The notes: a model not told the origin generated them from the sequence alone. Positions 1 through 64,000 are shown, numbered from the stretch's first letter. The stretch: DNA of 64,000 nt from a virus (IMGVR_UViG_3300050821_016647:1-64000), one strand, 5' to 3'. Program-made: numbers and translations.

Positions 1-86
1 TTGCCCCGCGTCTCGGCCGATGTCGGGGATTGGCGACTTTCCGATGATCTCGCGGATCGTGTTCAACAGGTGAGCGTCGCCGCGGG

Positions 87-1487
87 TCATGGCTTCACTC
101 GGAACGTGAGCGCCTCGGCCATGTGCGGGCCGGTGATGAGATCCGTGTCGTCGAGTGCGGCGATGGTGCGAGCGACGCGAGGAATGGTCCGCTCGTATTC
201 GACGGCCAGCGCCGCGACGGAGCTAGTCTTGTCGAAAAGTTTCTGCGCCTCGGGTGAGATTTTCGGGATGGAGGATTCTAGAATCTTCCGCGCCACCTCG
301 ACGCGCACTCGTACGGATTCGTTGTTGTCGCTCGACGTGCGGCCCGACGTGACGGCGGCGATGCGATAGTCGGGGACCTCGACGCGCATCGCGAACAGCG
401 ACTCGTAGGACGCGGCACGCTCCCGAAAGCGCTTCAGTCGCTCGGGGGTGCACTGGCACCCGGTGACGTACGATGGCCCGCATTCGCACTTGTTCGTCGC
501 GCCGACGAGCAGCGGCGAGGCCGGCATCGTCGCCGTGCGTCGCAGTGTGACCTTGCCTTCGGACAAGACGCGGGCGAGCGCTTCGAGCGCGCTCTTTCGG
601 AACTCCTGCACTTCATCAAGAAAGAGCACGCCGTGATGACCGAGCGTGACCTCTCCCGGGCGCGGGTGATCGCCACCGCCGAGCAGGCCCAGCTCGCTCA
701 CGGTGTGATGGGGAGCGCGGAAGGGTCGGGAGACCGGGGCGCCTTTCAAAGCTTGTCCCCACCCTCCGCCGCGTAGCCCTGCGGCGTCGTGAATGGTGAG
801 CACGTCGAGCGCTTCATCGGCCGTGAGACTCGGCAGGATGCCGGCGAGGCGCCGTGCCGCCGCGGTCTTGCCCGTACCGGGACCGCCGACCAGTAGAAGA
901 GGGTGCCGACCCGCGGCGGAGATTTCGAGCGCGCGACGAACCGCGGGGGAGGGCAGGTCGGCGATGCTGAGATCGGAGACCTCCTCTTTGATGCCGGGGC
1001 TTCCCACGAGCCGCAGGTTCCCGTTGACGGCCGCGTCGGCGAGAGACTCGCACGAGAGCACCTTTGCGCTCGTCGCGGTAGCGTCGAAAGCGTTGCCGGC
1101 CGGGACGACGATCTCACCTTTCCCGACGGCGCGAGCGTGTGCGACGACGCCGCGAACGGAACGTAGTAGGCCGTCAAGGGCTAGCTCGCCGATGTAGACG
1201 GCGTCGCCGCGCCAGATTCCGTTGTTGCGCAGCCCCGTTATGGCGAGAGCAATCGCCAGGTCGAGGCTCCCAGGATAGCCTGTGACCTCGGGCGTCACGG
1301 TGACGTCGACGTTACCGGCCTCGATACCGCACTGGGCGAGTGCCGACTTGACTCGCACGCGAGCCTCGCGCATCGCAACGGCCGGTATGCCTTCGATGAG
1401 AATCCCACCAGCCGCGCTAGCTTTAGCCGTGATAGTGACCGGACGGGATTCGATGCCTACGAGGACGGCGGAACGAACGGTGATCAT
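87..1487 (-). CDS. comM: ComM/YifB-family Mg-chelatase-like AAA+ ATPase (diverged)
   Basis: Start MITVRSAVLVGIE (ATGA overlap at 1484-1487); Lon-like N-domain (SLDLAIA, GELALDG), Walker A GGPGTGKT, PFRAPHH, GGG..PRPGEVTLGHHGVLFLDE, C-terminal VARTIA. Confidence 0.9.
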   Translation of the reverse strand: MITVRSAVLVGIESRPVTITAKASAAGGILIEGIPAVAMREARVRVKSALAQCGIEAGNVDVTVTPEVTGYPGSLDLAIALAITGLRNNGIWRGDAVYIGELALDGLLRSVRGVVAHARAVGKGEIVVPAGNAFDATATSAKVLSCESLADAAVNGNLRLVGSPGIKEEVSDLSIADLPSPAVRRALEISAAGRHPLLLVGGPGTGKTAAARRLAGILPSLTADEALDVLTIHDAAGLRGGGWGQALKGAPVSRPFRAPHHTVSELGLLGGGDHPRPGEVTLGHHGVLFLDEVQEFRKSALEALARVLSEGKVTLRRTATMPASPLLVGATNKCECGPSYVTGCQCTPERLKRFRERAASYESLFAMRVEVPDYRIAAVTSGRTSSDNNESVRVRVEVARKILESSIPKISPEAQKLFDKTSSVAALAVEYERTIPRVARTIAALDDTDLITGPHMAEALTFRVKP

Positions 1488-1822
1488 GAAGCCTCTTTTT
1501 GGTAGACGCCGGTTTTGGAATAGATGCTTTGAATGGGTTTCCCCTCTTCCCAGTCGAGTATCTGGTCTGCACTTCGGCCCCATGCGATGAGAGCCTCGCG
1601 CGCCGTGTCGAATGCGGAAACGTCGAAACCAATCCCGGTGGGAGCGTCGGGGGAATGAGTCCAGTACAGCTCGCGCGTCGATGCGTGCCAACGAGGCTTA
1701 CCGGCGGCCGTCGTGCCGTAGGTCAAACTACGAATCAGAATGCCGGCGCGCTTGCCTTTGAAGAGGATGGGGAAGGTGGTCACTCCAGAGTGTGTCTGTT
1801 GGTGAACGAGTGAGGTGCTCAC
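1484..1822 (-). CDS. hypothetical protein
   Basis: 112-aa ORF in the minus-strand run, coupled to comM. Confidence 0.65.
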   Translation of the reverse strand: MSTSLVHQQTHSGVTTFPILFKGKRAGILIRSLTYGTTAAGKPRWHASTRELYWTHSPDAPTGIGFDVSAFDTAREALIAWGRSADQILDWEEGKPIQSIYSKTGVYQKEAS

Positions 1823-1894
1823 CGCGCGTCAGAGTGAAACGACGGCCCCCGATAGACAGGAAGGAATTGGCCGGTGCTGAGAGCTTGGTAGCGG

Positions 1895-2122
1895 TCATGT
1901 TTCCTCAAGCGGCGTAGTGAATTCCCAATTCGCATTGAGCGCTTCCATATCCAGGTCGATCCCCTCTACGGGCATCGTGCGTGTTTCGGGGGTGAAGCCG
2001 TCTACGCGCAGCGCGATAGCGATGGCTTCGTTGACGTTGGCCTCCGGTGTGTCATCGGGAATTTTGACCCATCCGTCCGTGCACGTGCGAACCGGAATGT
2101 TCGTGACAAATACGCGCTTCAC
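1895..2122 (-). CDS. hypothetical protein
   Basis: GTG start overlapping the upstream stop (GTGA at 2119-2122); VKRVFVTNIP... Confidence 0.6.
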   Translation of the reverse strand: MKRVFVTNIPVRTCTDGWVKIPDDTPEANVNEAIAIALRVDGFTPETRTMPVEGIDLDMEALNANWEFTTPLEET

Positions 2123-4182
2123 GACGGCCCCCGCATTGTGAGCAGTACGGTTCGCACTCCGGTCCCGTCGAACGTGCCGGCCGGTAGCTCCTCCCACGTC
2201 TCGGCCAGAGGCTTGAGCTTCTCTGCTTGCCGCGGACCTCCGGCGCAGATGGCGACGAGTCGACCGCCGGGCTTCAGGAACGTACGAGCGCGCATGATGT
2301 GCATGACGTCGACCGCGTCTTTGAAGGGCGGGTTCATGACGACGGCGTCGAACTCGAACGGGGCACCTTCCGCTTCCGGACCGACGAAATCGAGAAAGTC
2401 GGCGCAGTGTGCGTCCGTCAGTCGGGCAAGCCGAGGATTGATCTCCACCGCGGTAACGACGCCGCCGCGCGCCCGAATCGCCTGGACGATGTTTCCCGTA
2501 CCGGCGCTAGGCTCGAGGACGCGGTCGCCCTCGCCGACGCCCGCGAGGCGCACCATGCGCGCCGCCAGGTCGGGAGGCGTCGGAAAGAGCTGGTCCGCCG
2601 AGACGACTTGAACGCCGGCCTTGAGCGTTTCTTTCATCGCCTCGAACTTGTGACGGGTAACGATGACGTCGGGCTTGGAAACACTGGTCCCCTCCCTAGC
2701 GAGCTTCGCCACAATCTGCGCGTCGGAGAGTCCTTCGCTGGCGAGTTGACCGATACGAGGTTCGTGTAGCAGTCGCTCCGGTAGCTCCGGCTTTTTACCG
2801 CCGGGCGGCGGCGGGTCTTTTCGCGGAATGTCCGTGATGAACACCTCGATGTCCTCGAACGAGCCGCCCGGCTTCCACATGGTGCGCTGACGGTGCGCGC
2901 CGTGCTTCTCGTTCTCTTTGACGCGCACGGTACGGTACGAATCGCTGTGCTTGGCGCGATAGTCCCATTCCTTTTTCGTCATCTCGTGGAACGTCTCGCC
3001 CTTGGCGTTCGTGCCGGGGTAGTTGACGAGCGGCGGTAGCTTCGTCGCGGCGGCGACCTTCGCGGCGTCTTCCTCGCTCGGGGGCCGGTAGTCGACGACT
3101 TCCTCGATACCGACTTTCATGCGTCCGTATCGGCCTCGAACGGTGTACGAGTTGACGTCGCCCTTGTTCACTCCGGATTGGGCCACCTTGTTCACGCGCA
3201 AGACCACCGCCCATCCTCGGTGCTCGGTGAGCACCTGTCCGCCGGGCTTCACGTCGAACTTCTCGGCGTGTACCGCGATGTCGCCGGTCTCGCCGAGCAT
3301 GGCGCGCTCGTACGTCAGGCGAAGGTTCAGATGCGAGATCCACCGTTCGCGCCATTCGGCGTTACGCGTGTGCGCCTCGACGGCGCGTTTGGTCGCTTCT
3401 TCGACGGTGATCTCGTTCTTGTCGAGCGCAGACCACGTGCCGTACGGTAGCGCGCGATCGTAGTTGGCAATCTTGAGCGCCTGGTCACGCGTGAGCGTGG
3501 TCGACCAGAACTTGATCCCGCCGATCGACTCGCTGCGCGATTTCTCGTGCTTGCGCAGGTCGGCCTCCAAGCCCTTGATGCGCCTGTGACGTACGCCGGG
3601 GTCCTCTTTGTACTTGGCGAGCCGCAGCGCGCCAGCGGCGCGGCGTTCCCAGTATTTCGACGTCTCCCAGAGCTTGATCGCCTTGCGCATGCCGGACTTG
3701 ATCCGCTCGGCGTCTTTCTCGGCGTGGCGTTGGGAATGGTGGCCGATGAGGATCGGTTGGCCAAGCGGGATGTTGTCCGCAATCGCCGCCACCGCCTCGT
3801 GCGCTCGTTCGGCGTCGTCGGCGCGCTTCTCCTGGTAGACCTCGAACCGCTCGGCGCGTTCCTCGGCGCGCTCGACGAGCGACGTATCTTCGTCGCCGAT
3901 GTCGCCGCACAGCTCGAACGCCAGATCGGCGCGCTCCGGGGTCCACATGGGAGCGACGAACAGCTTTTGCTGTGGTGCCCAGTGGAAGCCGGCGGCCTTG
4001 ACGCGATCGTATAGCTCTTTCGGGAGCCGAGCTACCGAGCGTAGGCGAAGCTTGTTGTCGGCGGGGTCGTAGGTCGCGTCCATGGTGGGGAATGAATGCC
4101 CGGGGCAATTCGGTTTCTGACATACGTGGCAAACGCCGCACGTATCGGGAGAAGTGCAATCGTCGGGTATGGTGGCGTTCAT
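2119..4182 (-). CDS. DUF3560 domain protein fused to a C-terminal N6-type (NPPF) DNA methyltransferase
   Basis: YDPADNKLRL...GQPILIGHHSQRHA (DUF3560); LFPTPPDLA, VLEPSAGTGNI, VVMNPPF; ATGA-coupled start at 4182. Confidence 0.85.
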   Translation of the reverse strand: MNATIPDDCTSPDTCGVCHVCQKPNCPGHSFPTMDATYDPADNKLRLRSVARLPKELYDRVKAAGFHWAPQQKLFVAPMWTPERADLAFELCGDIGDEDTSLVERAEERAERFEVYQEKRADDAERAHEAVAAIADNIPLGQPILIGHHSQRHAEKDAERIKSGMRKAIKLWETSKYWERRAAGALRLAKYKEDPGVRHRRIKGLEADLRKHEKSRSESIGGIKFWSTTLTRDQALKIANYDRALPYGTWSALDKNEITVEEATKRAVEAHTRNAEWRERWISHLNLRLTYERAMLGETGDIAVHAEKFDVKPGGQVLTEHRGWAVVLRVNKVAQSGVNKGDVNSYTVRGRYGRMKVGIEEVVDYRPPSEEDAAKVAAATKLPPLVNYPGTNAKGETFHEMTKKEWDYRAKHSDSYRTVRVKENEKHGAHRQRTMWKPGGSFEDIEVFITDIPRKDPPPPGGKKPELPERLLHEPRIGQLASEGLSDAQIVAKLAREGTSVSKPDVIVTRHKFEAMKETLKAGVQVVSADQLFPTPPDLAARMVRLAGVGEGDRVLEPSAGTGNIVQAIRARGGVVTAVEINPRLARLTDAHCADFLDFVGPEAEGAPFEFDAVVMNPPFKDAVDVMHIMRARTFLKPGGRLVAICAGGPRQAEKLKPLAETWEELPAGTFDGTGVRTVLLTMRGPS

Positions 4183-10167: not shown

Positions 10168-11739
10168 TCAGATATCAAATCGCGCGTCGGCGGTAGCGGT
10201 CTCTGGCGTCGACGCGGGACGAGCGCGGCCTTTGGCCCATGCCCTGAGATTTTCGATCTTGTCCGCGCTCGTCTTTGAGAGCGGTACGACCGCGCGCGCC
10301 GCGTTCAGAAGATCGGCCGTCGTGATTGCACGCTCCCCATCGCTGAACGCTACCAGCATCGCGCTCGGGACCAGTGACGCGATTTCGGCGCCGACGAATC
10401 CCGCGCAAGCGCTCGCCACGGTCGCCGCGTCGACGGTTGACGGGTCGCGCCCATACTGGACCATGGCCGCATTGACTACCTCGACGCGTTCGCGCTGCGT
10501 AGGTAGGTCAATGAACCAAATGTCATCGAATCGGCCTTTGCGTAGCATCTCCGGAGGGAGTGAGCGCACGTCGTTTGCAGTGGCCAAGACGAAGACTTCC
10601 GAGCGCTTCTCTTGCATCCAAGAGAGGAAAGCGCCCAGACGATCGGCGGAGACTCCCCCATCGGCGCCAGCTGGCCCCGCATTGAACATTTTTTCGACCT
10701 CGTCCAGCCAAAGCACGCACCGGCCGACCGCGTCCACGGTCTGGAAAAGACGGCGGATCGTCTTCTCACTATCGCCTACGAATTTCCCGGCGGTAGCGTT
10801 TAGGTCGCCGCGCAGCAAGGGGCACCCGAGCGCCGCCGCTACGCATTTCGCGAACAGGCTTTTGCCGGTACCAGGCGGGCCGACGAGCACGTACCCCTTA
10901 GGGCACGTGAGACCGTAAGCGCGTGCTCGGGGTCCGTAGGCGCCTCCAAGCAAGCGCGTTGCCTCTTTGAGCAAGTCTCCCCCGCCCATCGCCGCGAGGC
11001 CGCGTGCGTCGACGTCAAACCATTCGAGGCCGGCAATGCCGTTGACGATCCGCTTTTTCTCGTTGGCGACGATCGCCGCGTCAATCGACTTGCTAGTTAC
11101 CAGTGACTTGGCGTAGCAATTTTTGGCGCCTTGGATCGTCAAGCCGAGAGCCGCGCCAATCGCGGCCTCGCGAGCGCCATTCGTCGGCGCCATGTTCGGG
11201 TAAAGCTCCGTGATTGCGTCCAGCGTCGCCGCGATTTCGGCGCGATCCGGGAGAGGGTAGTCGATGCACGTGGCGTTACCCTGCAATTCGGGCGGTACGT
11301 CACTGGAGTACGTCAAAACCACCATGGCGCGCATCTCCGCGCGCGGCGCGGATTCGAGCTTGCGGGCGAGATTCTTTAGTTTGCGCTGCGTTGTGGGATC
11401 CTTGACCCACACGTGCCAATCGCGGAGCACGTACAGGGCTCGTGTGGGCGTCGACGCGATGAAATCGAGCGCTCGCGAGGGGTCTTGTGCGTTCTCCAGC
11501 ACTTCCCCCGTGGCGCTCGTGATACCCTGATCGCAGTCAACGAACCGCACCTCGTACGTGGCGCTCGCCCCCGCCTCGACTAGCGCGGCCTCGACGCGTG
11601 ACTCTTCTCCCGTTGTGATCCACAGGAGCGTATTTCGGGCTTTCAGTAGCGCGGTAATTTCCGCGGCGACGATCGCCCCCCTTGTCTTCGTGACGAGCGC
11701 GGGAATATCCGCGGCTCGGGTGGTGCCTTGCGTGTTCAT
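10168..11739 (-). CDS. AAA+ ATPase (Ycf46/CDC48-like central domain)
   Basis: Walker A GPPGTGKS, Walker B VLWLDEVEK, LATANDVRSLPPEMLRKGRFD; degenerate N-terminal AAA; start MNTQGTT after leader GAAGGGACCAA. Confidence 0.9.
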   Translation of the reverse strand: MNTQGTTRAADIPALVTKTRGAIVAAEITALLKARNTLLWITTGEESRVEAALVEAGASATYEVRFVDCDQGITSATGEVLENAQDPSRALDFIASTPTRALYVLRDWHVWVKDPTTQRKLKNLARKLESAPRAEMRAMVVLTYSSDVPPELQGNATCIDYPLPDRAEIAATLDAITELYPNMAPTNGAREAAIGAALGLTIQGAKNCYAKSLVTSKSIDAAIVANEKKRIVNGIAGLEWFDVDARGLAAMGGGDLLKEATRLLGGAYGPRARAYGLTCPKGYVLVGPPGTGKSLFAKCVAAALGCPLLRGDLNATAGKFVGDSEKTIRRLFQTVDAVGRCVLWLDEVEKMFNAGPAGADGGVSADRLGAFLSWMQEKRSEVFVLATANDVRSLPPEMLRKGRFDDIWFIDLPTQRERVEVVNAAMVQYGRDPSTVDAATVASACAGFVGAEIASLVPSAMLVAFSDGERAITTADLLNAARAVVPLSKTSADKIENLRAWAKGRARPASTPETATADARFDI

Positions 11740-11801
11740 CGTTGGTCCCTTCCGCGCCCAGCGGGCGCTTTCGATGGGGCTCCGCGCCCACGGGGAAGCT
11801 T

Positions 11802-11839
11802 GTGTCTCGCGCATGATACGCGCAAGGGGGGTCTGCAAA
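11802..11839 (-). promoter_or_regulatory. sigma70-like promoter, repeated early motif (copy 3)
   Basis: TATCAT at 11818-11813 within the conserved 20-mer; -35 weaker (TTTGCA/TTGCAG near 11833-11839); inverted near-copy at 11871-11888. Confidence 0.6.
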
Positions 11840-11859
11840 CGGGTGACACGGCTCGGGAC

Positions 11860-19439: not shown

Positions 19440-19448
19440 GAGCTACTC

Positions 19449-22016: not shown

Positions 22017-22017
22017 G

Positions 22018-47139: not shown

Positions 47140-47543
47140 TGGCAGTGTCTCCCTAGTGGAAAAACCCGGCGCTTTGGCCGACTTCGAAACGGTAACGAAG
47201 TAGCCTGTAGACGTCAAACGTCTCACATGATTGGCAGTCGTCGAACGCGGTTTACGACCACGTGAATAGCGACGGATCACCGAGAATTTGGCTCTCGAAT
47301 GCTTGCGACGTCGCGGCGCACTATTCGACTTGTCGGAGCGAGTTTTCGTGGCTACTCGCTTTGTAATACGCTTGTGTGCAGCGCTCGTAGACCGATTTCG
47401 CGATACACGCTTAGGTTTTGTATTACGAGCGCCGGCTTCGTCGCTTTCACTCCTGAATGCGTTCATTCGAGCCGCATAATCCCCGCCGGATGACTTCGCC
47501 ATCCACAACGAATACGCCCACGCGGGCGGAACGACAACTCGCT

Positions 47544-49646: not shown

Positions 49647-49648
49647 GG

Positions 49649-52922: not shown

Positions 52923-52996
52923 GGTCGATCTCTCCTACCTTGTCGTCTGTCTCGACAGGGTAAACTAGCCGAGCGGGTACCGCAACTCTGCGTTTT

Positions 52997-53551
52997 TCAG
53001 TCGATCAGATAGTAGCCAGCGGCCCCAGCCGCTCCGAGCCCGAGTAGCACCCAAAGCCAGGTATACGACGTTGGCGCAGCAGTGACGGGCATCGCGCCTT
53101 GAGAGGTGAGCGTCACAAGCGCCGGATTGAACGTCATGGGCGCCCCGGCGACCACGATGGGCGCCGAGCCTCCGCTCTGATGAGCCGCGACAGAGCTCTT
53201 GCTCGCGCAGACGCTCACGCTACCGAAGCCGGGCGAGAACATGATCGGCAAGCCTGACGACAACTTGAAGTAGAAGTTGCCGTCTGCGGCAGCTCGCGAC
53301 GGATACAAGGAAGCCCAGTTTCTTATCCACTTGACGAGAGCGCCGGTGAGCTCGGGCACCTTCGGCGACGATGGGCTCGGAGGGTACGCGTTCACCCAAG
53401 AATAGCCCGCCGGACAGGAAATAGGCTTCGCCGACCAGTTCGGAGGCGTGAGTCCCAGCCCCCTCGGTCGAAGACGCGCTGAAAACGCGCGGTCGCTCGG
53501 GGCCGGCACGCGACCGAAACCTTGAATCGGAAAAGCGTAGTCCTTGGACAT
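52997..53551 (-). CDS. virion membrane protein, paralog of the C-half of 51582-52922
   Basis: MSKDYAFPIQGFGR; CPAG..W, A.DG..YF; SYTWLWVLLGLGAAGAAGYYLID. Confidence 0.7.
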   Translation of the reverse strand: MSKDYAFPIQGFGRVPAPSDRAFSARLRPRGLGLTPPNWSAKPISCPAGYSWVNAYPPSPSSPKVPELTGALVKWIRNWASLYPSRAAADGNFYFKLSSGLPIMFSPGFGSVSVCASKSSVAAHQSGGSAPIVVAGAPMTFNPALVTLTSQGAMPVTAAPTSYTWLWVLLGLGAAGAAGYYLID

Positions 53552-53553
53552 GG

Positions 53554-53838
53554 TCACTCCGTAGCAAAGTAGATGAGGGCCCCGATCACTGCAACTCCGA
53601 CGGCTCCGGCAATCACGTAAGGAACCAACGACGGTGCTGCCGCAGCCGACGCCGTTCCCGGCGCGGTCACTGCAAGACCCTGATCCAGACTCGCTTGCGC
53701 CGCGACGACTCTCGCTTGAGCCGCTTGAATAGCGGTCGTGTTTCCGCTCGCAGCAGCTTGTGCCAGCGCCGTCTGCGAATTTTGCCACTCGGTAAATTGC
53801 GCCGTCAGCTGCGCTTGAGTCTGTCCGAGGCCGCTCAT
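53554..53838 (-). CDS. small helical membrane protein
   Basis: MSGLGQTQ...; C-terminal TM. Confidence 0.7.
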   Translation of the reverse strand: MSGLGQTQAQLTAQFTEWQNSQTALAQAAASGNTTAIQAAQARVVAAQASLDQGLAVTAPGTASAAAAPSLVPYVIAGAVGVAVIGALIYFATE

Positions 53839-55310
53839 CTTCGAAGCAACCTTCCAGCTCGAGCAAGACCAAGCTTCGTCGTTTCGACGGGGGACGTATT
53901 CGTCGCCGCCGAGTACGCCAGAATGGCAAAAGCCAAGGTGCCTGCGGCGCCTGCTGCTACCGCGCCGACCTTGCTAGCCGTCGTGAGGGTCGGGGCAGCA
54001 GCAACCGTCACAGACTGTGTTGGTGCAGTCGTCCAGTCTTCGGGACCCGTCCACACGGCTCCATTCGCCATGGCGCGAGCCATAGCGGAATAGTCCGCAA
54101 TCAGCTGATGGAGCGTGGCCTGAGCTTGCGTGGTCGACCAGCCAACACCTTGAAGAGTATGACCAGGATACCCGAGCTCGAATTTCTGCCCCCCATTCGG
54201 CTGACTCGAACCGAACGTTGTTCCGTTCTTGTTGAGGATGTACGCCTGAATCGACAGCTCGGCGACGATGGCCATAGGCGAAGCGCCGCAGCTCAACATG
54301 CCAAGCACGGTCGCGACGGCATTCATTCCGTCAGGGTTGAAGTAAATAGTCTGCCCACTCGTAGGTCCGTTCCCCGGAGCGGCTGTGCCGTAGAGCGATG
54401 TTCCGAAGTAAAGAGGGTCCGGCCGTCGCTGCTGCGCTCGCTGAACGATGAGCGCCTGGGTCAGCGTGTCACTCACCCCTTGCGTGGACTGAATCCACTT
54501 GTTTTGTAGGGCCGTTGCGCTTCCACCGGGCCCACCCGATCCGAAATAAAGATCGAGCGTGCAGTCCACCAGTCCTCCCGGACCTGTGTTCGTCGGCGTC
54601 GACCAGTTCCACCATACCGGTGTACAGAGCGGCTGCTCTTTCCCTTTTTTCCCAGTCACCGTATTCAGGACGGAATTGAGTGACGCCGATCGCGTATTCT
54701 GGCTTAGAAACGTTGGGCCGTAGCTCGGCAGTATTTGGTAAAACGGATTGGTGGCCCAAGCTCCATAGAGCAGATTCCTCCACGTTGACTCGCGCTTCGA
54801 AGTCGAAGGTGGATAAACGGACGCACACCAATCGGCCATCGCCCACCCCTGTGGGTTGTCCGACATGAGTGCTCGTTTCGAATTTGCGTAAGCAATCACA
54901 CGCTCGGTGATGACCTCGGTAGCCTGACTCACGCCGCCGACGGCAGTAACGCCCTGAAATGTCCCGAGGCTCGCAAGCCCTTCAACTAGACCCGCCACAG
55001 CGCCGACCGCAGCACCGTACGGACCTGCGATAGCTGCCCCTTGCATAGCACCGCTGAGAACGTCGGCCGCCATCGTCGCGACCTGCTGGTACTGCGCACC
55101 GCCGATACTCGTGATGAAAGAGATGCCAGCCTCGGCGAGCGTCATGAGCCCGTCGGAGGTTCCGCTTTGAATCGCGTTGACGAGATTCTGACCGTGCGTA
55201 ATTGCGTCCGACGCACTCGACGGGATATTTGCGAGCTGCGTCGCTGGATCGTTGAGGTGGGAGACTAGCGCCGAAGCGGACGAGAATTGGCCTAGCCCTC
55301 GAGCGCGCAT
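53835..55310 (-). CDS. glycine-zipper membrane protein (possible DNA delivery/penetration protein)
   Basis: MRARGLGQ; GAAIAGPYGAAVGAVAGLVEGL; C-terminal TM. Confidence 0.6.
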   Translation of the reverse strand: MRARGLGQFSSASALVSHLNDPATQLANIPSSASDAITHGQNLVNAIQSGTSDGLMTLAEAGISFITSIGGAQYQQVATMAADVLSGAMQGAAIAGPYGAAVGAVAGLVEGLASLGTFQGVTAVGGVSQATEVITERVIAYANSKRALMSDNPQGWAMADWCASVYPPSTSKRESTWRNLLYGAWATNPFYQILPSYGPTFLSQNTRSASLNSVLNTVTGKKGKEQPLCTPVWWNWSTPTNTGPGGLVDCTLDLYFGSGGPGGSATALQNKWIQSTQGVSDTLTQALIVQRAQQRRPDPLYFGTSLYGTAAPGNGPTSGQTIYFNPDGMNAVATVLGMLSCGASPMAIVAELSIQAYILNKNGTTFGSSQPNGGQKFELGYPGHTLQGVGWSTTQAQATLHQLIADYSAMARAMANGAVWTGPEDWTTAPTQSVTVAAAPTLTTASKVGAVAAGAAGTLAFAILAYSAATNTSPVETTKLGLARAGRLLRR

Positions 55311-55358: not shown

Positions 55359-57065
55359 TCAGCCCCAGAGCGGGCCGGACGGGACCGGGATTGTCGGCTT
55401 TTTCGGAGCCGGCGGCGGAACAGGAGCGGGTCTCGGAGGCGGCGCTGCTTGCACCGGCGCTGCTTGCGGAGGAGGAGGCTGCGGAGCTTGCGGAGGCTGC
55501 GGCTGCGGAGGAAGCACCGGAACCTGAGGGTTCTGCGCGCGCGACACCGCGTTGGCAAGTTCGATTCTCTGCTTCACCGCGTTGTTGGTCAGTGCCGCCT
55601 GATGGTCGACGATCTTTCGGTACTGGTCGACGCCCTTGGTCACGAACTCGGAAATTTTCGGAAGTGCCCCCACGAGCGTCGGCGCCCATGCGACCTTTCC
55701 CGTCGCGCGATCGAGCGCCATGGAGATACCACCCACGTCCTGAGTTAGCATTGCCGGTGGCACCTGCGGCACATCCTGAGGCCCATCGTCGATCTCATCA
55801 TCGACTGTCGCTGGCTGCGGAGCGAAGCCTGCGAACATGTCCTGCACAGTCTTCATCCCGGACATGGCCTCTTGAAGCATCGAAACCGTGCCCTTGATCT
55901 GCGCTCCGAACGACGGTTGCGGAGCCGGCGGCGGAGCCTGAACGATGACCTGCGCGGGCTGCGCAGGCGCGGCCGGCGCCGCAACGGCAACAGGCACTTG
56001 CCCCACTCCGACAGGACCGACAGGATACGCAGCCATCGGCGGTGCCGGCATCATGCCTCCAGGCACACGCACGTAACCGGGTGGGACGGGATACTGCTCA
56101 GACGGAAGAGAGATGAAACCCGCCGGAGGCTGTGGCTTCTTCATCTCGGCGACCATTTCCTTGAGCGTCGCCATCGTTGCGGCGTTCTGCGCCTGCATCA
56201 TCTCGAACAGCGCACGATTCGCGTCGAACCCGCCGGAGGCGGGTGCGGGCGGGGGCGGCATGTAAATGGGCTGCGGAGCCGGTACGGGTGCAGGAGATTG
56301 CGGCGGAGCTGCCTGCTGCTGCTGCGGCTGCTGCGGAGGAGACACCACGATGACCTGCGGTGACTGCTGCTGCGGTTGAGGCTGTTGTGGCCACGGGTAC
56401 CCAGGAGAAGCGGGCCAACCCTGACCTCCTCCGCTACCTCCACCGGCACCTCCTCCAGGATACGCGTACTGAGGTTGCTGCGGTTGCTGTTGCTGTTGCT
56501 GAGGTGCCGGAGGATTGATCACTTGCACGGGAGACGGCGCGGTTTTATCCGGCATGAACAACTTTGCCGTACCGCGTTCCGCACCTGAGCTCGATCGGAA
56601 CGAGATCTTGTATGTCGCCGGACCGCTCATGCCATGTTGACTGGCAACGTAGTTGTACAGATCGATCGAGTTCCTGACGTTCGCACCGAGCACCGGTTGA
56701 AATTGCGCTCTCGGTCCAGGGTCCTCTCGAGAGACCAGAATGATCATCGATCCCCATTCCTGAGAGAACGGGATGATGAGATTGTCGATGAGCTCGAGAG
56801 CTTCCTCGGCATTCCAAGAAACGCTTTTGCCGAGTGCTTTGTCCCGGAGCTTGGCTGCGTTACGCTTGTTCTTTCGCGCGGAGTCCACAGTCAAAGCTCC
56901 TATCGCACGAGCTTGTTCCTCGGAAACTTCCCCTTCCATGGTGGGGGTCCCGTCCGGGTTCGTGGGAACCGCGGCCGGCAGCGTAACCCGGGTCACGTCG
57001 CTCATGTCGACGTCGGCGTCTTCGGGGGTCACTTCGGAACGTCGAGCTACTCGGTGACGAGCCAT
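55359..57065 (-). CDS. large Pro/Gln-rich protein (possible scaffold)
   Basis: Globular N-terminal ~170 aa, long PQQQ/PAP tracts, two helical islands. Confidence 0.7.
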   Translation of the reverse strand: MARHRVARRSEVTPEDADVDMSDVTRVTLPAAVPTNPDGTPTMEGEVSEEQARAIGALTVDSARKNKRNAAKLRDKALGKSVSWNAEEALELIDNLIIPFSQEWGSMIILVSREDPGPRAQFQPVLGANVRNSIDLYNYVASQHGMSGPATYKISFRSSSGAERGTAKLFMPDKTAPSPVQVINPPAPQQQQQQPQQPQYAYPGGGAGGGSGGGQGWPASPGYPWPQQPQPQQQSPQVIVVSPPQQPQQQQAAPPQSPAPVPAPQPIYMPPPPAPASGGFDANRALFEMMQAQNAATMATLKEMVAEMKKPQPPAGFISLPSEQYPVPPGYVRVPGGMMPAPPMAAYPVGPVGVGQVPVAVAAPAAPAQPAQVIVQAPPPAPQPSFGAQIKGTVSMLQEAMSGMKTVQDMFAGFAPQPATVDDEIDDGPQDVPQVPPAMLTQDVGGISMALDRATGKVAWAPTLVGALPKISEFVTKGVDQYRKIVDHQAALTNNAVKQRIELANAVSRAQNPQVPVLPPQPQPPQAPQPPPPQAAPVQAAPPPRPAPVPPPAPKKPTIPVPSGPLWG

Positions 57066-58181: not shown

Positions 58182-59255
58182 CTATCGTTTCTTCTGCTTG
58201 TATCCGCGCAGCTTCAACTTGCCGGCTTCTGCGAAGCTGTAGAACTTCGTCTTGGTGCAAATAATCACGTGATCCATCAGCTCCAAGTTGACAGTCTGGG
58301 ACGCGTCCCGAATCGTCTCGGTCAGGAGCTTGTCCGAGTCCGATGGTTTACACACCGTCGAGGGGTGATTGTGCACTACGATAATCGCTGAAGCGCCTTC
58401 GACGACAGCGATACGTAGAACGTCCGGCACGGGTACATCCACTTTATCGCGAGCGCCGCGAGCGATCTCACTGATCCCGCGGACCATGAGCTGCGAGTCA
58501 ATGAGAATCGCAAGGAAGACCTCCTGGTCCTGCGACATCATGTACTCGCCAACCAACTTGCAGACACTCTTCGGCCCCGTCATCGGACCGATAGCCTTCG
58601 CCGCCGCGAGACACGAGCGAAACCGCTCGGGATCTCGAGCGATACGCACCCACGGCAAGCATTGAGGAGTCCTCGACGCATACGCACCGGTGAGCTCCTT
58701 CGAAAACGGCGTCTCAATGGACTCCTTGATCGCGTACCCTCCCCCCTCACTCGCTGCGAACCGATCGAACACGACCGCGTTGGGTGTCCCCGCTCCTTCA
58801 CACGCGGGTCCGCAGCACGCGACCTGATCCCCGCCGGGCTCCGCTACGGCAAAGAGCGGCTCGCTCGCCGTGTTACCAGTCAGGAGTCGTCCGCGACCTG
58901 CAAACGCGACCTCGGTCCGTTGCGTACCCACGACCGCGACGTCGACAGCGACCTTGCCGTCACAGCCGCAGCCTGGCTTCTTCCCGCCCGAGAACGCCTG
59001 CTCGAGGTTCCCCGCCGCCTCTATAGAGGAGAGCGGCACCGGCCGACCGTACGTCTGCTCGTCGACCGCAAGGCCGCTGAGCTCGTCGGCTTGGTCCGAC
59101 GCGACCCAGCGCTTGGCCTGATCGAACGGCACGCCAACCAGGACCGCTTGGCCGCCGAGGTTCGAAAGAATCCAGGCTCGAGACGTCCCGTCTTTCAAGG
59201 TGAAGACGAGCTGGAGGCGGACAGAATATCCGGGCGTGTTTTCGGAGTGGTTCAT
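58182..59255 (-). CDS. radC: RadC-like JAB/MPN domain protein with long N-terminal extension
   Basis: QEVFLAIL...VHNHPS...PSDSD...LELMDHVII. Confidence 0.85.
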   Translation of the reverse strand: MNHSENTPGYSVRLQLVFTLKDGTSRAWILSNLGGQAVLVGVPFDQAKRWVASDQADELSGLAVDEQTYGRPVPLSSIEAAGNLEQAFSGGKKPGCGCDGKVAVDVAVVGTQRTEVAFAGRGRLLTGNTASEPLFAVAEPGGDQVACCGPACEGAGTPNAVVFDRFAASEGGGYAIKESIETPFSKELTGAYASRTPQCLPWVRIARDPERFRSCLAAAKAIGPMTGPKSVCKLVGEYMMSQDQEVFLAILIDSQLMVRGISEIARGARDKVDVPVPDVLRIAVVEGASAIIVVHNHPSTVCKPSDSDKLLTETIRDASQTVNLELMDHVIICTKTKFYSFAEAGKLKLRGYKQKKR

Positions 59256-60135: not shown

Positions 60136-60411
60136 TCAACGGCGAGCGCGAGCGCGCTTCGGAGGCACTTCTTCCTCCTCTTCCTCGTCGTCTTCCTCTT
60201 CCTCTTCCTCGTCCTCTGGGCGCTCGTAGCCAGGCTCGAACCGTTCGAGGTACTCCTCGATCATCTCGTCGGCGAGCGCGACCGCATCATCGAGAACGAC
60301 TTCGAACTTCTTCTTGGGGTTGCCGCCGAGACCGGAGAGCGCCGCAGACGCGAACGCGAGCCACGCTTGACGTTCTTCGAGTTCACTGATGATGCCACCG
60401 AGCTTACTCAT
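60136..60411 (-). CDS. small acidic protein with poly-Glu tail
   Basis: ATGA-coupled MSKLGG...EDEEEEEEDDEEEEEE. Confidence 0.65.
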   Translation of the reverse strand: MSKLGGIISELEERQAWLAFASAALSGLGGNPKKKFEVVLDDAVALADEMIEEYLERFEPGYERPEDEEEEEEDDEEEEEEVPPKRARARR

Positions 60412-61289
60412 GACTCCACCATCCACGGTTGAGGAAATAGGTTAGGTGATTGTTCGACCGCGACTTTTCGGAGCTTTCGAGCGAAACGTTGAATCTCGAG
60501 ATCCGCGGCGTTGTTCGCACGCTCCCTTACCAGCTTTGCGATGGCTGCGGGATTGGTAGTCCAAATGAAGCTCGTCTCAGCCTGGTGTGGCAGGAAGCTC
60601 GAGGCAGCTTCGTAGATGCGCTTCTTGTCGAGGCTGGTTGGCTTCTTGCCGTGTGCGATCTCGAATGCGTCGCATTCGCGTGAGACCGCGCCGAGGTAGT
60701 TGGCGTACGCCGACTGCATCGACTCTTTGAAATGCGTTTGCATACGAAGACGATGTGTCTCGTCCGCGTACTCGAACTCGAGACTGGAATACTTCGGTGG
60801 CTCGATGAAGAAACCGTAGTGATGAGTAAAGCGCGTTGACTCCTGCGACGGAGCGCCCTCCTCATCACGGTCGGCACCGACATAGTTGCGGATGATCTCG
60901 TGGCTCACGCGTCGAGAAACGCCCGCAAAGAAGAACGTCATCTTCGCGTGGTAGAGGATGCTGGCGTGCGGGATGTCGCCCTGCTGTGTGTTCTTGATGT
61001 ACTCGGCGTTCGTCTTCTTGCCGGCCTTGAGACCGAACGAGTCGTAGCACTTTCGACCAGCGAGCTCGACGAGCAGCTCGTTGTCCGATAGTCGACGCCC
61101 GTTCTCCATGAACGGATGAGGGAAGAGAGATTCCCAATTACGATTCGGCTCATCAGGCAAGCACTCGGGTCGATGCTTCTCAACCCAGTTCATCATCTCG
61201 GTAATTCCGGACGGAGTGAGCTCCATGGCCGCGATGAGCAAAACCGTCGGGTCGTCCGTGAGAATGGTGACTTTCTTTCCGGTATCCAT
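60408..61289 (-). CDS. thyX: flavin-dependent thymidylate synthase (atypical motif)
   Basis: ELAGRKCYDS, HASILYH, GVSRRVSHEIIR...SQESTRF, RANNAADLEI; TGATG-coupled start. Confidence 0.8.
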   Translation of the reverse strand: MDTGKKVTILTDDPTVLLIAAMELTPSGITEMMNWVEKHRPECLPDEPNRNWESLFPHPFMENGRRLSDNELLVELAGRKCYDSFGLKAGKKTNAEYIKNTQQGDIPHASILYHAKMTFFFAGVSRRVSHEIIRNYVGADRDEEGAPSQESTRFTHHYGFFIEPPKYSSLEFEYADETHRLRMQTHFKESMQSAYANYLGAVSRECDAFEIAHGKKPTSLDKKRIYEAASSFLPHQAETSFIWTTNPAAIAKLVRERANNAADLEIQRFARKLRKVAVEQSPNLFPQPWMVES

Positions 61290-62410
61290 CAGAACGTGAA
61301 CCTCGACTTCGCCGCCTCTACTGGAGCGGGCGCGGGTGGGGCGAGCGGTGGCGCTGGTAGCGTCGCAGCTGCCTCGCTCGCAGCCTGCAAAAACTCCGGC
61401 TTGTCGTGCTCCGGGTGCATGGCCCACGCGCGAGCGAGGTCGATCTGCATGCTCGTCCATCCCGTGACGGTAACGAGATTCAGCGCGATACCGAGCTTGC
61501 TCAGCTCTGTGACGAGCTGCGACAGGTTCTCCCTCGCTGCGGCTGGATTCTCTTTCGAGACAGCCTTCGTCCCGTTCGAACCTTCGCGCGACGCTTTCAA
61601 CCGCGCAAGCTCATCGGTCGACGTGTCTGGAGCTCGCCCGAGCGCTTCATCGCGCTGCGCTTTGTTCTCCGGCGTCTCGGCGACGGTTCCGTTGGCCGTC
61701 CCGTTCGCTGCTGCCGCTGCCGCCGCAGCTTCCGCCTCGAGCGTCCTCTTGTTCTTCGCGCCCCTCGGTCGTCCCTTCCCTCTTTTTCCGCCTTCGGCTG
61801 ATCCGCCGATGTTGACCGACCAGCAGTTACCGCACTTCTGGCAAGCGACTTCGTGCTGTCCCGGGTTGTTGTCGGGAGGGTCCATCTTCCAGTTTTCGGG
61901 CGGGCACGTGCACGGCTTGAACTTGCCTTCGTTCGCCGCCTCACTGCAAAGCTTCCCTTCTCCCGTGTGTCGATGCGCGGTCTCTCCCGAATACTCGACA
62001 CCTGCATCGCACGCTGCGCAGCCTCCAGCTGGTCTTGGCTCGCTGGGGGCTGGCGGCGGGACTACGACAGGCGGAGCAGCCGGTGGCTCTTGGATGGCAC
62101 GACCATTCGAGACGGGCACTACCACCACGCCACCACCATGGCTCGATCCGACAGTGACGCTCGGAGCTGATGTTGGAGCGATCATGGTCGCGCCCGGGTT
62201 CGCCTTCAGGAAGGCCGCGTTGTCGGCCATGATCTTTTCTCCCTTCTCTTCGATCTCGGCAGCGAGACCTTTCAGGAGAAGAACAACGCACTTGATCGAG
62301 CACGCATCCGCACGAACGGTCTCTCCCCATCCTCCTGCGACGGTGACGCCGCCATTGAAATCGTCGACCAGGTGCTGACACACGTCACACGTCACTACGA
62401 GCTTTCTCAT
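61289..62410 (-). CDS. multi-Zn-finger protein
   Basis: CDVC...CSIKC, CAAC...H...C, CTC...CQKCG; AT-hook-like GRPRG. Confidence 0.65.
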   Translation of the reverse strand: MRKLVVTCDVCQHLVDDFNGGVTVAGGWGETVRADACSIKCVVLLLKGLAAEIEEKGEKIMADNAAFLKANPGATMIAPTSAPSVTVGSSHGGGVVVVPVSNGRAIQEPPAAPPVVVPPPAPSEPRPAGGCAACDAGVEYSGETAHRHTGEGKLCSEAANEGKFKPCTCPPENWKMDPPDNNPGQHEVACQKCGNCWSVNIGGSAEGGKRGKGRPRGAKNKRTLEAEAAAAAAAANGTANGTVAETPENKAQRDEALGRAPDTSTDELARLKASREGSNGTKAVSKENPAAARENLSQLVTELSKLGIALNLVTVTGWTSMQIDLARAWAMHPEHDKPEFLQAASEAAATLPAPPLAPPAPAPVEAAKSRFTF

Positions 62411-62780: not shown

Positions 62781-63016
62781 AGACACCTCCTCATCACCTT
62801 CCCGAATACCCTCATCGCCGTCGATGGACGACTCTTGAGCGAGATCACTCGACGTAGCGTCTCGATATCCTCATCGAGACGCCGCGCGAGCTCTCCTATC
62901 GACATACTTCCGCGACCGTCGCAGCACGGGCACCGAACGGCTAGGTCATAGCCCTCACGAGAGCGTAGGACCCAGCCGAGGTTGCACAGCTCGCACTGAA
63001 ACGGTCGCGCGGTCAC
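62777..63016 (-). CDS. Zn-finger + HTH protein
   Basis: CELC...CPCCDGRG then MSIGELARRLDEDIETLRR; GTGA-coupled start. Confidence 0.6.
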   Translation of the reverse strand: MTARPFQCELCNLGWVLRSREGYDLAVRCPCCDGRGSMSIGELARRLDEDIETLRRVISLKSRPSTAMRVFGKVMRRCL

Positions 63017-63750
63017 GCCTCGGCGGAGGTTGCCGCCGAGGCCGCGCCGTTCGACTCGATGTGCTTGTCGAGGGCCGCGAGCGCCTTCTTCTTGCTCTTC
63101 TTCGGCGCCTTCGACTTCGCTGCACCGTTCGACTTGGCCTTCGCCTTGGCCGGCTTCGCTTTGGCCTTCGCGGGCTTTGCCTTCTTCGGCGCAGCCTTCG
63201 CCTTGGCCTTCGCCTTCGCGGGCTTCGACTTGGCCTTTGGCGCAGCCTTTTTCGCAGGCTTCGCAGCGCTCTTGACCGCGCCGACGGTGTACTCGGTCGC
63301 GCGCTTGTTGCCCTGCTTCTTGAGGCCGAGCTTGTCGAGCGCGTACTGGAGTGGCTTCATCCACTCGCGCTTGTCGATGGCGAGCGCAGCCCTGACGGCC
63401 TCGGCGCGCATGGGGACGCCTGCCTGCTTCACGTAAGCGACGATCTTGCCGGCCATCTCCACGATGTCCTCTTCGGATCGCCGCGCGAGTCGGCCTGACT
63501 TGGCCTTGGCTGGGCCCGGCGGGCGACCACGGCGGGGAGCGCCATTGGTAGCAGTCGCTGCGGTGAGCGACGTCGACTTGCCATACCGGTCGCCAATGAG
63601 GTCTTCGAGCGAACACTCGCGAATGGCGAGCATGACGCTCGCGGCGAACTCGGCTGAGGCTGCTGCGATCTTTTCACGAAGCTGTTCCATGAGTCTTCTC
63701 CTTTTTTGTGGGTCGGCCCCCGTCATAATAACGTGAACCTGGTTATGCAA
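63013..63750 (-). CDS. histone-like DNA-binding protein (myxobacterial type) with AKP-rich tail
   Basis: GRLARRSEEDI...MRAEAVRAAL...LKKQGNKRATEY; KPAKAKAK repeats; start uncertain. Confidence 0.75.
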   Translation of the reverse strand: MHNQVHVIMTGADPQKRRRLMEQLREKIAAASAEFAASVMLAIRECSLEDLIGDRYGKSTSLTAATATNGAPRRGRPPGPAKAKSGRLARRSEEDIVEMAGKIVAYVKQAGVPMRAEAVRAALAIDKREWMKPLQYALDKLGLKKQGNKRATEYTVGAVKSAAKPAKKAAPKAKSKPAKAKAKAKAAPKKAKPAKAKAKPAKAKAKSNGAAKSKAPKKSKKKALAALDKHIESNGAASAATSAEA

Positions 63751-63762
63751 GAGCTGAAGTGA

Positions 63763-63978
63763 TTATTTCCAGATAACCGGGCGATTTGTTTCCCGATCGA
63801 ACCTCCAAACCTGATTACGATCTCCGTACTTCGGAAATCCGACGAATCCAGGTTGGCCGCGCCAGACCCAGACCATGTCGCGGTGTTGCAGCTCGGCAAT
63901 CACGGAGCGTCCCTGACTCTCTTCGAGATCAAAGAGCTTCGTGAGCTCATTGAGCAGATGGGCAAAGTGGATGTCCAC
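63763..63978 (-). CDS. small hypothetical protein
   Basis: 71-aa ORF in the minus-strand run. Confidence 0.5.
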   Translation of the reverse strand: MDIHFAHLLNELTKLFDLEESQGRSVIAELQHRDMVWVWRGQPGFVGFPKYGDRNQVWRFDRETNRPVIWK

Positions 63979-64000
63979 GAGCGTGTGGTGCGGCTCTACC

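What the first reader, a model, noticed from the sequence alone, without database searches (positions are those of the whole stretch)
1..64000. Probable very large tailless, internal-membrane virus (>=64 kb) with an integrase
All 64 kb looks viral, with no host genes. There are more than 25 predicted membrane proteins, beta-rich capsid candidates, LysM proteins, fibre/spike genes and a transglutaminase-like enzyme. I recognise no terminase, portal, HK97 capsid, tail tube or tape measure. Characterised prokaryotic jelly-roll membrane viruses (PRD1, PM2, P23-77, SH1) have genomes of about 10-31 kb, so this would be at least twice as large and apparently temperate. The lineage assignment is inference.
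Basis: partly seen in the sequence, partly recalled or inferred. Interest (0 to 1): 0.8.

Follow-up and report, generated by a model that had tools for sequence, protein, structure and literature searches.

The report
Large soil virus lacking tailed-phage hallmarks
This is half of a complete 127-kb soil virus of bacteria that has no tailed-phage head, portal, terminase or tail genes; instead it has jelly-roll shell proteins, many small membrane proteins and a protamine-like DNA-condensing protein, so it probably represents a large undescribed lineage of tailless, membrane-containing viruses.

Summary
The window is the first half of a 127,529-bp IMG/VR virus record with a 90-bp terminal repeat (CheckV 100%).

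- **No tailed-phage hallmarks.** Pfam and PHROGs scans of all 194 genes, six-frame searches and a P-loop census find no terminase, portal, HK97 capsid, tail tube, sheath or tape measure. There is also no A32/FtsK-type ATPase. Five 110-125 kb relatives lack terminase too.
- **Conserved module.** In about 40 related contigs these genes sit with a third beta-rich protein, a transglutaminase-fold enzyme with an invariant Cys-His-Asp triad, and a 726-aa protein. That protein joins about 330 residues of poly-Arg repeats to a membrane anchor.
- **Membrane proteins.** About 25 window genes have membrane-like segments.

Best reading (0.6): a tailless virus with a jelly-roll shell, a membrane and DNA condensed without a motor. 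It resembles archaeal SPV1 in architecture but is bacterial and six times larger. Membership of PRD1/P23-77 lineages fails on the ATPase, and lysogeny is unsupported. I found no published description.

The parts
1..64000 (.). First half of a complete 127,529-bp virus genome (GC 61.5%, 90-bp direct terminal repeat, so circular or circularly permuted). Nearly all genes are on the minus strand.
44087..45328 (-). Large shell-protein candidate, 413 aa. It has the highest coding score and GC3 (0.90) in the genome. The N-terminal 'IGLG..P' motif is nearly invariant. The fold is a jelly-roll beta-sandwich with large insertions or a second beta domain. More than 400 metagenomic homologues, none with a Pfam family.
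43366..43971 (-). Small shell or vertex candidate, 201 aa: an eight-stranded jelly roll with N- and C-terminal helices. Present next to the large protein in all 40 related loci.
40969..42165 (-). Third conserved beta-rich structural protein, 398 aa. About 250 residues are conserved, followed by a disordered tail containing 'TGLGR'. The only sequence lead is a marginal profile match to enterovirus VP1 (E 0.0084).
45442..47622 (-). Candidate core protein, 726-aa ORF. About 330 residues of R6/AAAP protamine-like repeats are followed by an NP motif, hydrophobic segments and a Pro-rich tail with RGVGR/RGVGQ. An Arg-rich 470-840 aa ORF lies directly upstream of the shell gene in about 30 of 42 related loci.
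48723..49787 (-). Transglutaminase-fold (papain-like) enzyme. C179, H211 and D227 are invariant in 30 homologues. Candidate maturation protease or cross-linker.
51582..55310 (-). Four proteins (446, 186, 94 and 491 aa) with C-terminal membrane anchors and many G-[LVF]-G motifs. Candidate virion membrane proteins.
55359..57065 (-). 568-aa Pro/Gln-rich low-complexity protein with coiled segments. No family and no P-loop, so it is not a terminase. Homologues in 11 related loci.
58182..59255 (-). 357-aa protein with a C-terminal RadC-like JAB domain (HNHPS motif present). Conserved in all three fully compared relatives.
38116..40999 (-). Two proteins (551 and 248 aa) with an N-terminal LysM-like peptidoglycan-binding segment, Gly/His-rich or Cys-rich middles, and a C-terminal membrane anchor. 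Candidate entry proteins.
33760..37563 (-). Two spike-like proteins (318 and 600 aa) that share an N-terminal segment matching PHROG 4577 'tail protein' over about 55 residues, with small genes between them.
27486..33023 (-). Four large secreted-type proteins. The 386-, 486- and 533-aa ones are paralogues built of about 30-residue 'ISAGTTS..FSNSN.ISFGL' repeats with a shared C-terminal domain (fibre-like). No family hits.
23231..27266 (-). Sugar-modification cluster: NAD-dependent epimerase/dehydratase, methyltransferase, glycosyltransferase.
18404..22398 (-). Cluster of small paralogous membrane proteins with the pattern basic segment, NP, single TM, low-complexity tail. A second cluster lies at genome 97-103 kb. 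The core protein carries the same NP-TM module.
13202..14164 (-). Tyrosine recombinase/integrase (PHROG 1, 7e-21).
10168..12015 (-). AAA+ ATPase, 615 aa. An accessory gene shared with tailed mycobacteriophages and absent from the three compared relatives, so not a conserved packaging enzyme.
87..1583 (-). ComM/Mg-chelatase-like ATPase. Not conserved in relatives.
2119..4182 (-). 687-aa protein with a C-terminal DNA methyltransferase domain.
42300..43295 (+). Opposite-strand gene inside the shell module. By eye it has a GIY-YIG-like N-terminus and eleven 'GPEGR' repeats (homing-endonuclease-like). A gene of similar size sits at the same place in relatives. No family hit obtained.
60408..61460 (-). 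ThyX-type thymidylate synthase.

Best explanation
The window is half of the complete genome of an uncultured soil virus of bacteria. The virus belongs to a large, undescribed lineage that is not a tailed phage.

Proposed virion (inferred from gene content):
- An outer protein shell built from two jelly-roll proteins (413 aa and 201 aa), probably with a third conserved beta-rich protein.
- The shell lies over a lipid membrane that carries some two dozen virus-encoded small membrane proteins.
- The roughly 127-kb circular or circularly permuted dsDNA is condensed by a protamine-like poly-arginine domain of a 726-aa protein. That protein is itself anchored in the membrane by an NP-TM module. Many small paralogues with short basic N-termini share the same module.
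- Because the DNA is condensed on the membrane, no packaging motor is needed. None is encoded: there is neither a terminase nor an FtsK/HerA-type ATPase.
- Virion proteins share a G-[LV]-G-(Q/R/K) motif. The conserved transglutaminase-fold Cys-His-Asp enzyme probably processes these sites, or cross-links proteins at them.
- Beta-helix spikes, repeat fibres (possibly glycosylated by the adjacent sugar genes) and membrane-anchored LysM proteins would serve attachment and cell-wall penetration.

Shown here: genome completeness; absence of tailed-phage hallmarks and of any conserved packaging ATPase; jelly-roll folds of two core proteins; conservation of the module; the Arg-rich membrane-anchored protein; motif enrichment; and the intact catalytic triad. 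Inferred: that the jelly-roll proteins form the capsid, the position of the membrane, motor-free packaging, and proteolytic maturation.
For: Genome and absences:
- The record is complete: 90-bp terminal repeat and CheckV 100%.
- Pfam and PHROGs scans of all 194 called genes, every protein of 240 aa or more, and ORFs in gaps find no terminase, portal, HK97 capsid or tail gene.
- Six-frame searches at E<=1 for TerL_ATPase, Terminase_6N, Phage_portal, Phage_capsid, Pox_A32 and FtsK_SpoIIIE return 0 matches, while control genomes give matches.
- The same holds for both terminase families in five relatives of 110-125 kb.
- The only P-loop proteins in the genome are a ComM-like ATPase, an AAA+ ATPase, an SF2 helicase, a Sak4-like protein and a primase-helicase. 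ComM and AAA+ are not conserved in relatives.

Folds:

Conservation and other features:
- The module is conserved in about 40 related loci and three whole relatives.
- The shell-protein family is large: 260 clusters at 50% identity.
- The Arg-rich ORF lies upstream of the shell gene in about 30 of 42 loci.
- 25 window genes have TM-like segments, and 28 proteins in the genome carry NP just before a TM.
- G[LVFI]G occurs 45 times in genes of 38-57.1 kb against 15.3 +/- 3.4 expected, with no excess elsewhere.
- C179, H211 and D227 are invariant in the transglutaminase-fold enzyme.

Precedent: SPV1 has two single-jelly-roll capsid proteins, an inner membrane, a nucleoprotein core and circular dsDNA (PMC8459092). 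Some double-jelly-roll virus groups lack a packaging ATPase (PMC5894146).
Against: - I could not inspect coordinates, so single versus double jelly roll for the 413-aa protein is unresolved.
- Only two proteins were folded. The third conserved protein and the 446-568 aa proteins upstream remain unfolded.
- No particle, lipid or proteome data exist.
- No known double-stranded DNA virus with a 127-kb genome is established to fill an icosahedral shell without a motor.
- One relative (G002) carries a 590-aa HerA/FtsK-like gene. It has no homologue in this genome or in G005.
- The G-x-G motif excess is strong here but uneven among relatives: 540 observed against 379 expected overall.
Confidence: 0.6

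Rival explanations
1. It is a virus of the same undescribed lineage, but not an icosahedral internal-membrane virus. The particle would be enveloped, pleomorphic or otherwise novel. A basic-protein-condensed nucleoid would be wrapped by a membrane carrying the tail-anchored proteins on the outside. The jelly-roll proteins would serve as matrix, spike or fusion components rather than as a closed shell.
For: - There is no packaging ATPase.
- Many proteins have C-terminal anchors with large N-terminal domains, including the LysM proteins that should face the host wall.
- The jelly-roll matches are generic.
- A membrane-anchored protamine-like protein fits a wrapped nucleoid.
Against: - The 413-aa protein has the strongest expression-type codon bias in the genome and is the most conserved gene. 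It lies next to a small jelly roll, as in two-capsid-protein viruses.
- The best structural neighbours of both proteins include shell proteins of SPV1, PRD1, P23-77 and HHIV-2.
Confidence: 0.2
2. It is a highly divergent tailed phage. Its HK97 capsid, portal, terminase and tail proteins would have drifted beyond profile detection, and the jelly-roll proteins would be decoration, cement or receptor-binding proteins.
For: - Replication, recombination, lysis and several accessory genes are shared with tailed phages.
- Jelly-roll cement and fibre domains of tailed phages appear among the structural hits, for example KHP40 cement and phage 7-7-1 fibre.
- Weak PHROG 'tail protein' and 'baseplate hub' hits exist.
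- Several large proteins were not folded.
Against: - All three hallmark genes are missing at E<=1 in six frames in a complete genome. Both terminase families are also missing in five relatives.
- No unassigned P-loop protein is left to be a terminase.
- The PHROG 'tail' hits cover only a roughly 55-residue spike cap or lysin and LysM domains.
- There is no block of large unassigned genes outside 27-57 kb.
- The unassigned large proteins are low-complexity, membrane-anchored or repeat fibres.
Confidence: 0.08
3. It is not a virus but a plasmid-like or other mobile element. Its jelly-roll and membrane proteins would serve a cell-surface or secretion function.
For: - It has circular topology, two tyrosine recombinases, no packaging enzyme and many surface-type proteins.
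- Relatives have been binned into MAGs.
Against: - No conjugation or partition genes appeared in the listed Pfam and PHROGs hits.
- It carries a GH25 endolysin and a transglycosylase-like lysin.
- It has phage-type replication and recombination genes.
- Genes are compact and on one strand, and IMG/VR and CheckV class it as a virus.
- A protamine-like DNA-condensing protein next to the most conserved, highly expressed jelly-roll gene is hard to explain outside a particle.
Confidence: 0.05

Closest known systems
Portogloboviridae (Sulfolobus polyhedral virus 1, SPV1)
   Different: SPV1 has a 20-kb genome and infects hyperthermophilic archaea. This genome is 127 kb, comes from soil, and carries bacterial-type peptidoglycan-binding and muramidase genes. 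There is no sequence similarity, and the structural scores are too low to claim homology. The DNA-condensing protein here is a poly-Arg domain fused to a membrane anchor, unlike SPV1's VP1.
Sphaerolipoviridae and relatives (P23-77, SH1, HHIV-2, HCIV-1)
   Different: Their conserved packaging ATPase is absent here. Their genomes are 17-31 kb (my own knowledge). The scores are weak.
Tectiviridae and Corticoviridae (PRD1, PM2)
   Different: A double jelly roll is not established here. There is no FtsK/HerA-type ATPase and no protein-primed polymerase. The genome is about 10 times larger.
Adenovirus core and maturation system (protein VII/mu plus adenain) - analogy only
   Same: Adenovirus uses arginine-rich core proteins to condense the genome. 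It also has a virion cysteine protease that cuts many virion precursors at short Gly-containing motifs, (M/I/L)XGX-G (established knowledge). Here there is a poly-Arg core protein, a conserved Cys-His-Asp enzyme and a shared G-[LV]-G motif on virion proteins.
   Different: The enzyme fold family is different (transglutaminase-like, not adenain). Cleavage has not been shown. Adenovirus has a packaging ATPase and no membrane.

Membership tests
Caudoviricetes (tailed phages, Duplodnaviria) | Terminase large subunit | tested here: not met
   No Pfam or PHROGs terminase hit on any gene. Six-frame TerL_ATPase and Terminase_6N searches at E<=1 give 0 matches in this genome and in five relatives. No unassigned P-loop protein remains. 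Limit: this is profile-level sensitivity.
Caudoviricetes (tailed phages, Duplodnaviria) | Portal protein | tested here: not met
   No PHROGs or Pfam portal hit. Six-frame Phage_portal search at E<=1 gives 0 matches. Other portal families were tested only through the bulk scans.
Caudoviricetes (tailed phages, Duplodnaviria) | HK97-fold major capsid protein | tested here: not met
   The two most conserved structural proteins fold as jelly rolls. Six-frame Phage_capsid search gives 0 matches. There are no PHROGs capsid hits. Caveat: the other structural proteins were not folded.
Bamfordvirae (PRD1/PM2-type double-jelly-roll viruses) | [quoted passage not shown] | tested here: inconclusive
Bamfordvirae and Helvetiavirae (Varidnaviria) | FtsK/HerA-superfamily (A32-like) packaging ATPase | tested here: not met
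   Pox_A32 and FtsK_SpoIIIE six-frame searches at E<=1 give 0 matches. The P-loop census finds none. A HerA-like gene of relative G002 has no homologue here by tblastn at E<=10.
Helvetiavirae (P23-77/SH1-type) | Two adjacent single-jelly-roll capsid proteins, one small and one large | tested here: inconclusive
Portogloboviridae (SPV1) | Two single-jelly-roll capsid proteins homologous to VP4/VP10 | tested here: inconclusive
Portogloboviridae (SPV1) | Circular dsDNA and no packaging ATPase | tested here: met
   The contig has a terminal repeat. No ATPase candidate was found.
Portogloboviridae (SPV1) | About 20-kb genome and a hyperthermophilic archaeal host | tested here: not met
   The genome is 127 kb and comes from soil metagenomes. 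It carries a GH25 muramidase and LysM/PG-binding genes that point to a bacterial host.
Temperate phage | Integrated copies in host chromosomes | tested here: not met
   A pattern scan of 185,579 species genomes found four short MAG contigs and no integrated copy. Two tyrosine recombinases are present, but one of three relatives has no match.

The most novel reading that the evidence does not exclude
This genome represents a widespread soil lineage of bacterial viruses with genomes of about 110-130 kb, at the rank of a new family and possibly a new realm. These viruses would build a jelly-roll shell over a membrane and load more than 100 kb of dsDNA without any packaging motor. The DNA would instead be condensed on a membrane-anchored protamine-like protein. 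Virions would mature through a transglutaminase-fold enzyme acting at a shared G-x-G code.
Probability: 0.45. Interest if true: 0.92.

Novelty: new variant of a known kind. Interest (0 to 1): 0.85.

Why it matters
All well-characterised bacterial dsDNA viruses above about 35 kb are tailed phages with HK97 capsids and terminase motors. Known tailless membrane-containing prokaryotic viruses have genomes of 10-31 kb.

A common soil lineage breaks that rule. Its shell-protein family has 260 clusters at 50% identity, and its contigs reach 110-200 kb. These genomes carry jelly-roll proteins, a membrane-anchored poly-arginine core protein and no packaging ATPase.

If confirmed, this would add a major branch to the bacterial virosphere. 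It would also raise a concrete mechanistic question: how are 127 kb of DNA enclosed without a motor? The lineage is probably miscounted as 'tailed phage' in soil viromics, because only its replication genes are recognisable.

Tried and rejected
- **Binding test.** Complex prediction of the 413-aa and 201-aa proteins returned 'no answer' (score 0.00). It is not evidence either way.
- **ESM Atlas.** Look-ups of 55359-57065 and 40969-42165 were uninformative, with poor models and scores below 0.9.
- **INPHARED phage search.** tblastn of the shell candidate and of the 568-aa protein found no match.
- **PDB sequence searches.** Single sequences and profiles of the shell proteins found nothing significant. 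The only lead is a marginal enterovirus VP1 match for the third protein (E 0.0084).
- **Paralogy of the three structural proteins.** Profile-profile comparison found no detectable similarity, with probability below 1%. The 'three paralogues' idea from another note is therefore not supported at sequence level.
- **Foldseek TM-scores.** For the 413-aa model these were about 0.1 despite E about 1e-4 to papillomavirus L1. I use that only as a hint of a jelly roll with large loops.
- **Candidate packaging enzymes.** The AAA+ ATPase (10168-12015) is an accessory gene of tailed mycobacteriophages and is absent from relatives. The 555-aa PHROG 1735 protein (outside the window) occurs in 553 tailed-phage records that have their own terminases. 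Both were rejected.
- **ORFs missed by my gene call.** None has a relevant family hit.
- **Host identification.** This failed. Only mis-binnable MAG contigs (Acidimicrobiales, Binatia, Polyangiaceae) carry relatives, and the genome has no tRNAs.
- **Literature.** Six full-text searches found no description of this lineage. The library is not exhaustive.


Full report
**What the window is.** The 64-kb window is bases 1-64000 of a single 127,529-bp record. The first 90 bases of that record repeat at its end. IMG/VR classes it as a virus with direct terminal repeats and CheckV completeness of 100. GC content is 61.5% and there are no tRNAs. My own codon-bias gene call gives 194 genes, tightly packed and almost all on the minus strand. 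Near-identical DNA occurs in soil metagenomes from several studies.

**Recognisable genes.** Bulk and per-protein scans against Pfam and PHROGs identify the following:
- Phage-type replication and recombination genes: D5-like primase-helicase, SF2 helicase, Sak4-like protein, exonuclease.
- Nucleotide metabolism and DNA modification: methyltransferases, dCMP deaminase, ThyX, endonuclease VII, RNA ligase.
- Lysis: a GH25 endolysin and a transglycosylase-like lysin.
- Two tyrosine recombinases, a ComM-like ATPase and an AAA+ ATPase.
- A sugar-modification cluster.

Some accessory genes are shared with many tailed phages. The element is therefore a virus of bacteria that exchanges genes with tailed phages.

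**What is missing.**
- No gene matches a terminase, portal, HK97 capsid, tail tube, sheath or tape measure. This holds in the bulk lists, in individual scans of every protein of 240 aa or more, and in ORFs that my gene call had skipped.
- Six-frame searches are independent of gene calling. At E<=1 they give zero matches for TerL_ATPase, Terminase_6N, Phage_portal and Phage_capsid, while the same searches find these families in control genomes.
- Both terminase families are also absent from five relatives of 110-125 kb rated 100% complete.
- The 'tail' PHROG hits are domain-level only.
- The packaging ATPase of tailless jelly-roll viruses is equally absent. Pox_A32 and FtsK_SpoIIIE give zero matches.
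- A Walker-A census finds only five P-loop proteins, all otherwise assigned. Two of them, ComM-like and AAA+, are not conserved in relatives.
- One relative carries a 590-aa HerA-like gene, but it has no homologue here.
- Yutin et al. used the same reasoning, that P-loop ATPases are hard to miss, for small double-jelly-roll viruses without an ATPase (PMC5894146).

**The structural block (27-57 kb).** The 413-aa product of 44087-45328 has the highest coding score and GC3 in the genome.
- It has more than 400 metagenomic homologues on contigs up to about 198 kb, all unnamed and without a Pfam domain.
- A profile search of 1.84 billion representatives finds 260 clusters at 50% identity.
- None of 54 diverse members has a Pfam hit.
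- Its AlphaFold2 model (pLDDT 82, pTM 0.80) is beta-rich and not an HK97 fold.
- Foldseek ranks papillomavirus L1, CRESS-virus capsids and the STIV coat protein first, but weakly.
- Small sandwich domains align from residue about 38 to about 388. That suggests one jelly roll whose first and last strands pair, with large insertions. I could not inspect coordinates, so a divergent double barrel is not excluded.

The third candidate (40969-42165) was not folded. Its profile gives only a marginal match to enterovirus VP1 (E 0.0084). The three proteins are not detectably paralogous.

**Conservation.** In about 40 related loci and three whole relatives the shared core has two parts:
- The structural module: the three structural proteins, the Arg-rich protein, the transglutaminase-fold enzyme and a RadC/JAB-domain protein.
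- A small recombination module: helicase, Sak4-like protein and exonuclease.

Nearly everything else differs between genomes.

**The Arg-rich protein.** The ORF 45442-47622 encodes about 330 residues of R6/AAAP repeats. These are followed by an NP motif, hydrophobic segments and a Pro-rich tail. An Arg-rich ORF of 470-840 aa (30-44% Arg over 150 residues) lies directly upstream of the shell gene in about 30 of 42 related loci.

The same basic-NP-TM arrangement occurs in about two dozen small paralogues. They form two clusters, one at 18.4-22.4 kb in the window and one at 97-103 kb outside it. This pattern suggests a membrane whose inner face binds DNA.

**Membrane proteins and the G-x-G motif.** A hydropathy scan flags 25 of my 80 window genes. 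Proteins at 38-55 kb have C-terminal anchors.

G-[LVFI]-G occurs 45 times in genes of 38-57.1 kb against 15.3 +/- 3.4 expected, with no excess elsewhere in the genome. The copy at the N-terminus of the shell protein is nearly invariant across the family. Among relatives the excess is uneven, at 540 observed against 379 expected overall.

The transglutaminase-fold enzyme keeps C179, H211 and D227 in all 30 homologues. It is therefore a plausible processing protease or cross-linker. A JAB-domain protein with an HNHPS motif is an alternative. A protein I judge by eye to be an S8/S53-like peptidase (outside the window) is another alternative.

The best-supported picture is a tailless virus with a jelly-roll protein shell, a virus-modified membrane and DNA condensed by a membrane-anchored protamine-like protein without a packaging motor. 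The closest known architecture is archaeal SPV1. It has two single-jelly-roll capsid proteins, an inner membrane, a nucleoprotein core and circular dsDNA (PMC8459092). That SPV1 lacks a packaging ATPase is my own recollection.

This genome is six times larger than SPV1's. Its muramidase and peptidoglycan-binding genes point to a bacterial host, and it shows no demonstrable homology to SPV1. Membership of PRD1, PM2, P23-77 or SH1 lineages fails on the ATPase.

Lysogeny is not supported. No integrated copy was found in 185,579 species genomes, and the recombinases may instead resolve circular dimers.

**Rivals.** Three alternatives remain:
- A virus with a different, enveloped or otherwise novel particle (0.2).
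- A very divergent tailed phage (0.08).
- A non-viral element (0.05).

**Limits.** Only two proteins could be folded. The binding test gave no verdict. The host is unknown. Six literature searches found no description of this group, which does not prove that none exists. First readers of this scan had noted the same genes in this genome, and a relative in another genome, without follow-up.

Noticed in passing
window 38116-57065: The G-[LVFI]-G motif, typically P-T/R-G-L/V-G-Q/R/K, is three-fold enriched in virion-block genes: 45 observed against 15.3 +/- 3.4 expected by shuffling. It is not enriched elsewhere in the genome. The copy at the N-terminus of the 413-aa protein is nearly invariant in the family. 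Enrichment among relatives is uneven.
   Followed up: partly
window 18404-22398, and genome 97091-102925 (L002:13091-18925): About two dozen small paralogous proteins share the pattern basic segment, NP, 8-20 residues, one Gly/Ala-rich TM ending GY(L/I)(I/V)(Y/W), then a low-complexity tail. The 726-aa Arg-rich protein carries the same module.
   Followed up: partly
window 42300-43295 (+): An opposite-strand gene sits inside the shell module. It has a GIY-YIG-like N-terminus (by eye) and eleven tandem 'GPEGR'-containing repeats, which looks like a homing endonuclease. A gene of similar size and orientation sits at the same place in relatives (L006 12891-13757). No family hit was obtained.
   Followed up: partly
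window 27486-33023: Three paralogous proteins (386, 486 and 533 aa) are built of different numbers of a roughly 30-residue 'ISAGTTS.N..A.TFSNSN.ISFGL..ST.TAS' repeat, with a shared C-terminal domain. They lie next to an epimerase, methyltransferase and glycosyltransferase cluster (23231-27266).
   Followed up: no
relative G002 86970-88739 (L052:6970-8739), fragment in G001 110258-110515: A 590-aa HerA/FtsK-like P-loop protein with C-terminal winged-helix-like repeats is present in one relative and 88% identical over 86 residues in another. It is absent from the window genome and from G005. It could be an optional packaging or defence gene.
   Followed up: partly
genome 104082-105422 (L003:82-1422): A 446-aa protein carries a GGTSASSP-type serine-peptidase motif (S8/S53-like by eye) and a Pro-rich tail. 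It is conserved in two of three relatives and has no PHROG hit.
   Followed up: no
genome 113065-114732 (L003:9065-10732): A 555-aa protein of PHROG 1735 (E 6.6e-164, function unknown) has homologues in 553 tailed-phage records from many hosts and is 70% identical in relative G001. It is a widely travelling accessory gene.
   Followed up: partly
window 61289-62410 (-): An unannotated 373-aa ORF is Cys-rich at both ends with Ala/Pro-rich linkers. It overlaps the called start of the ThyX gene, whose true start is probably further downstream. No family hit and no homologue in relatives.
   Followed up: partly
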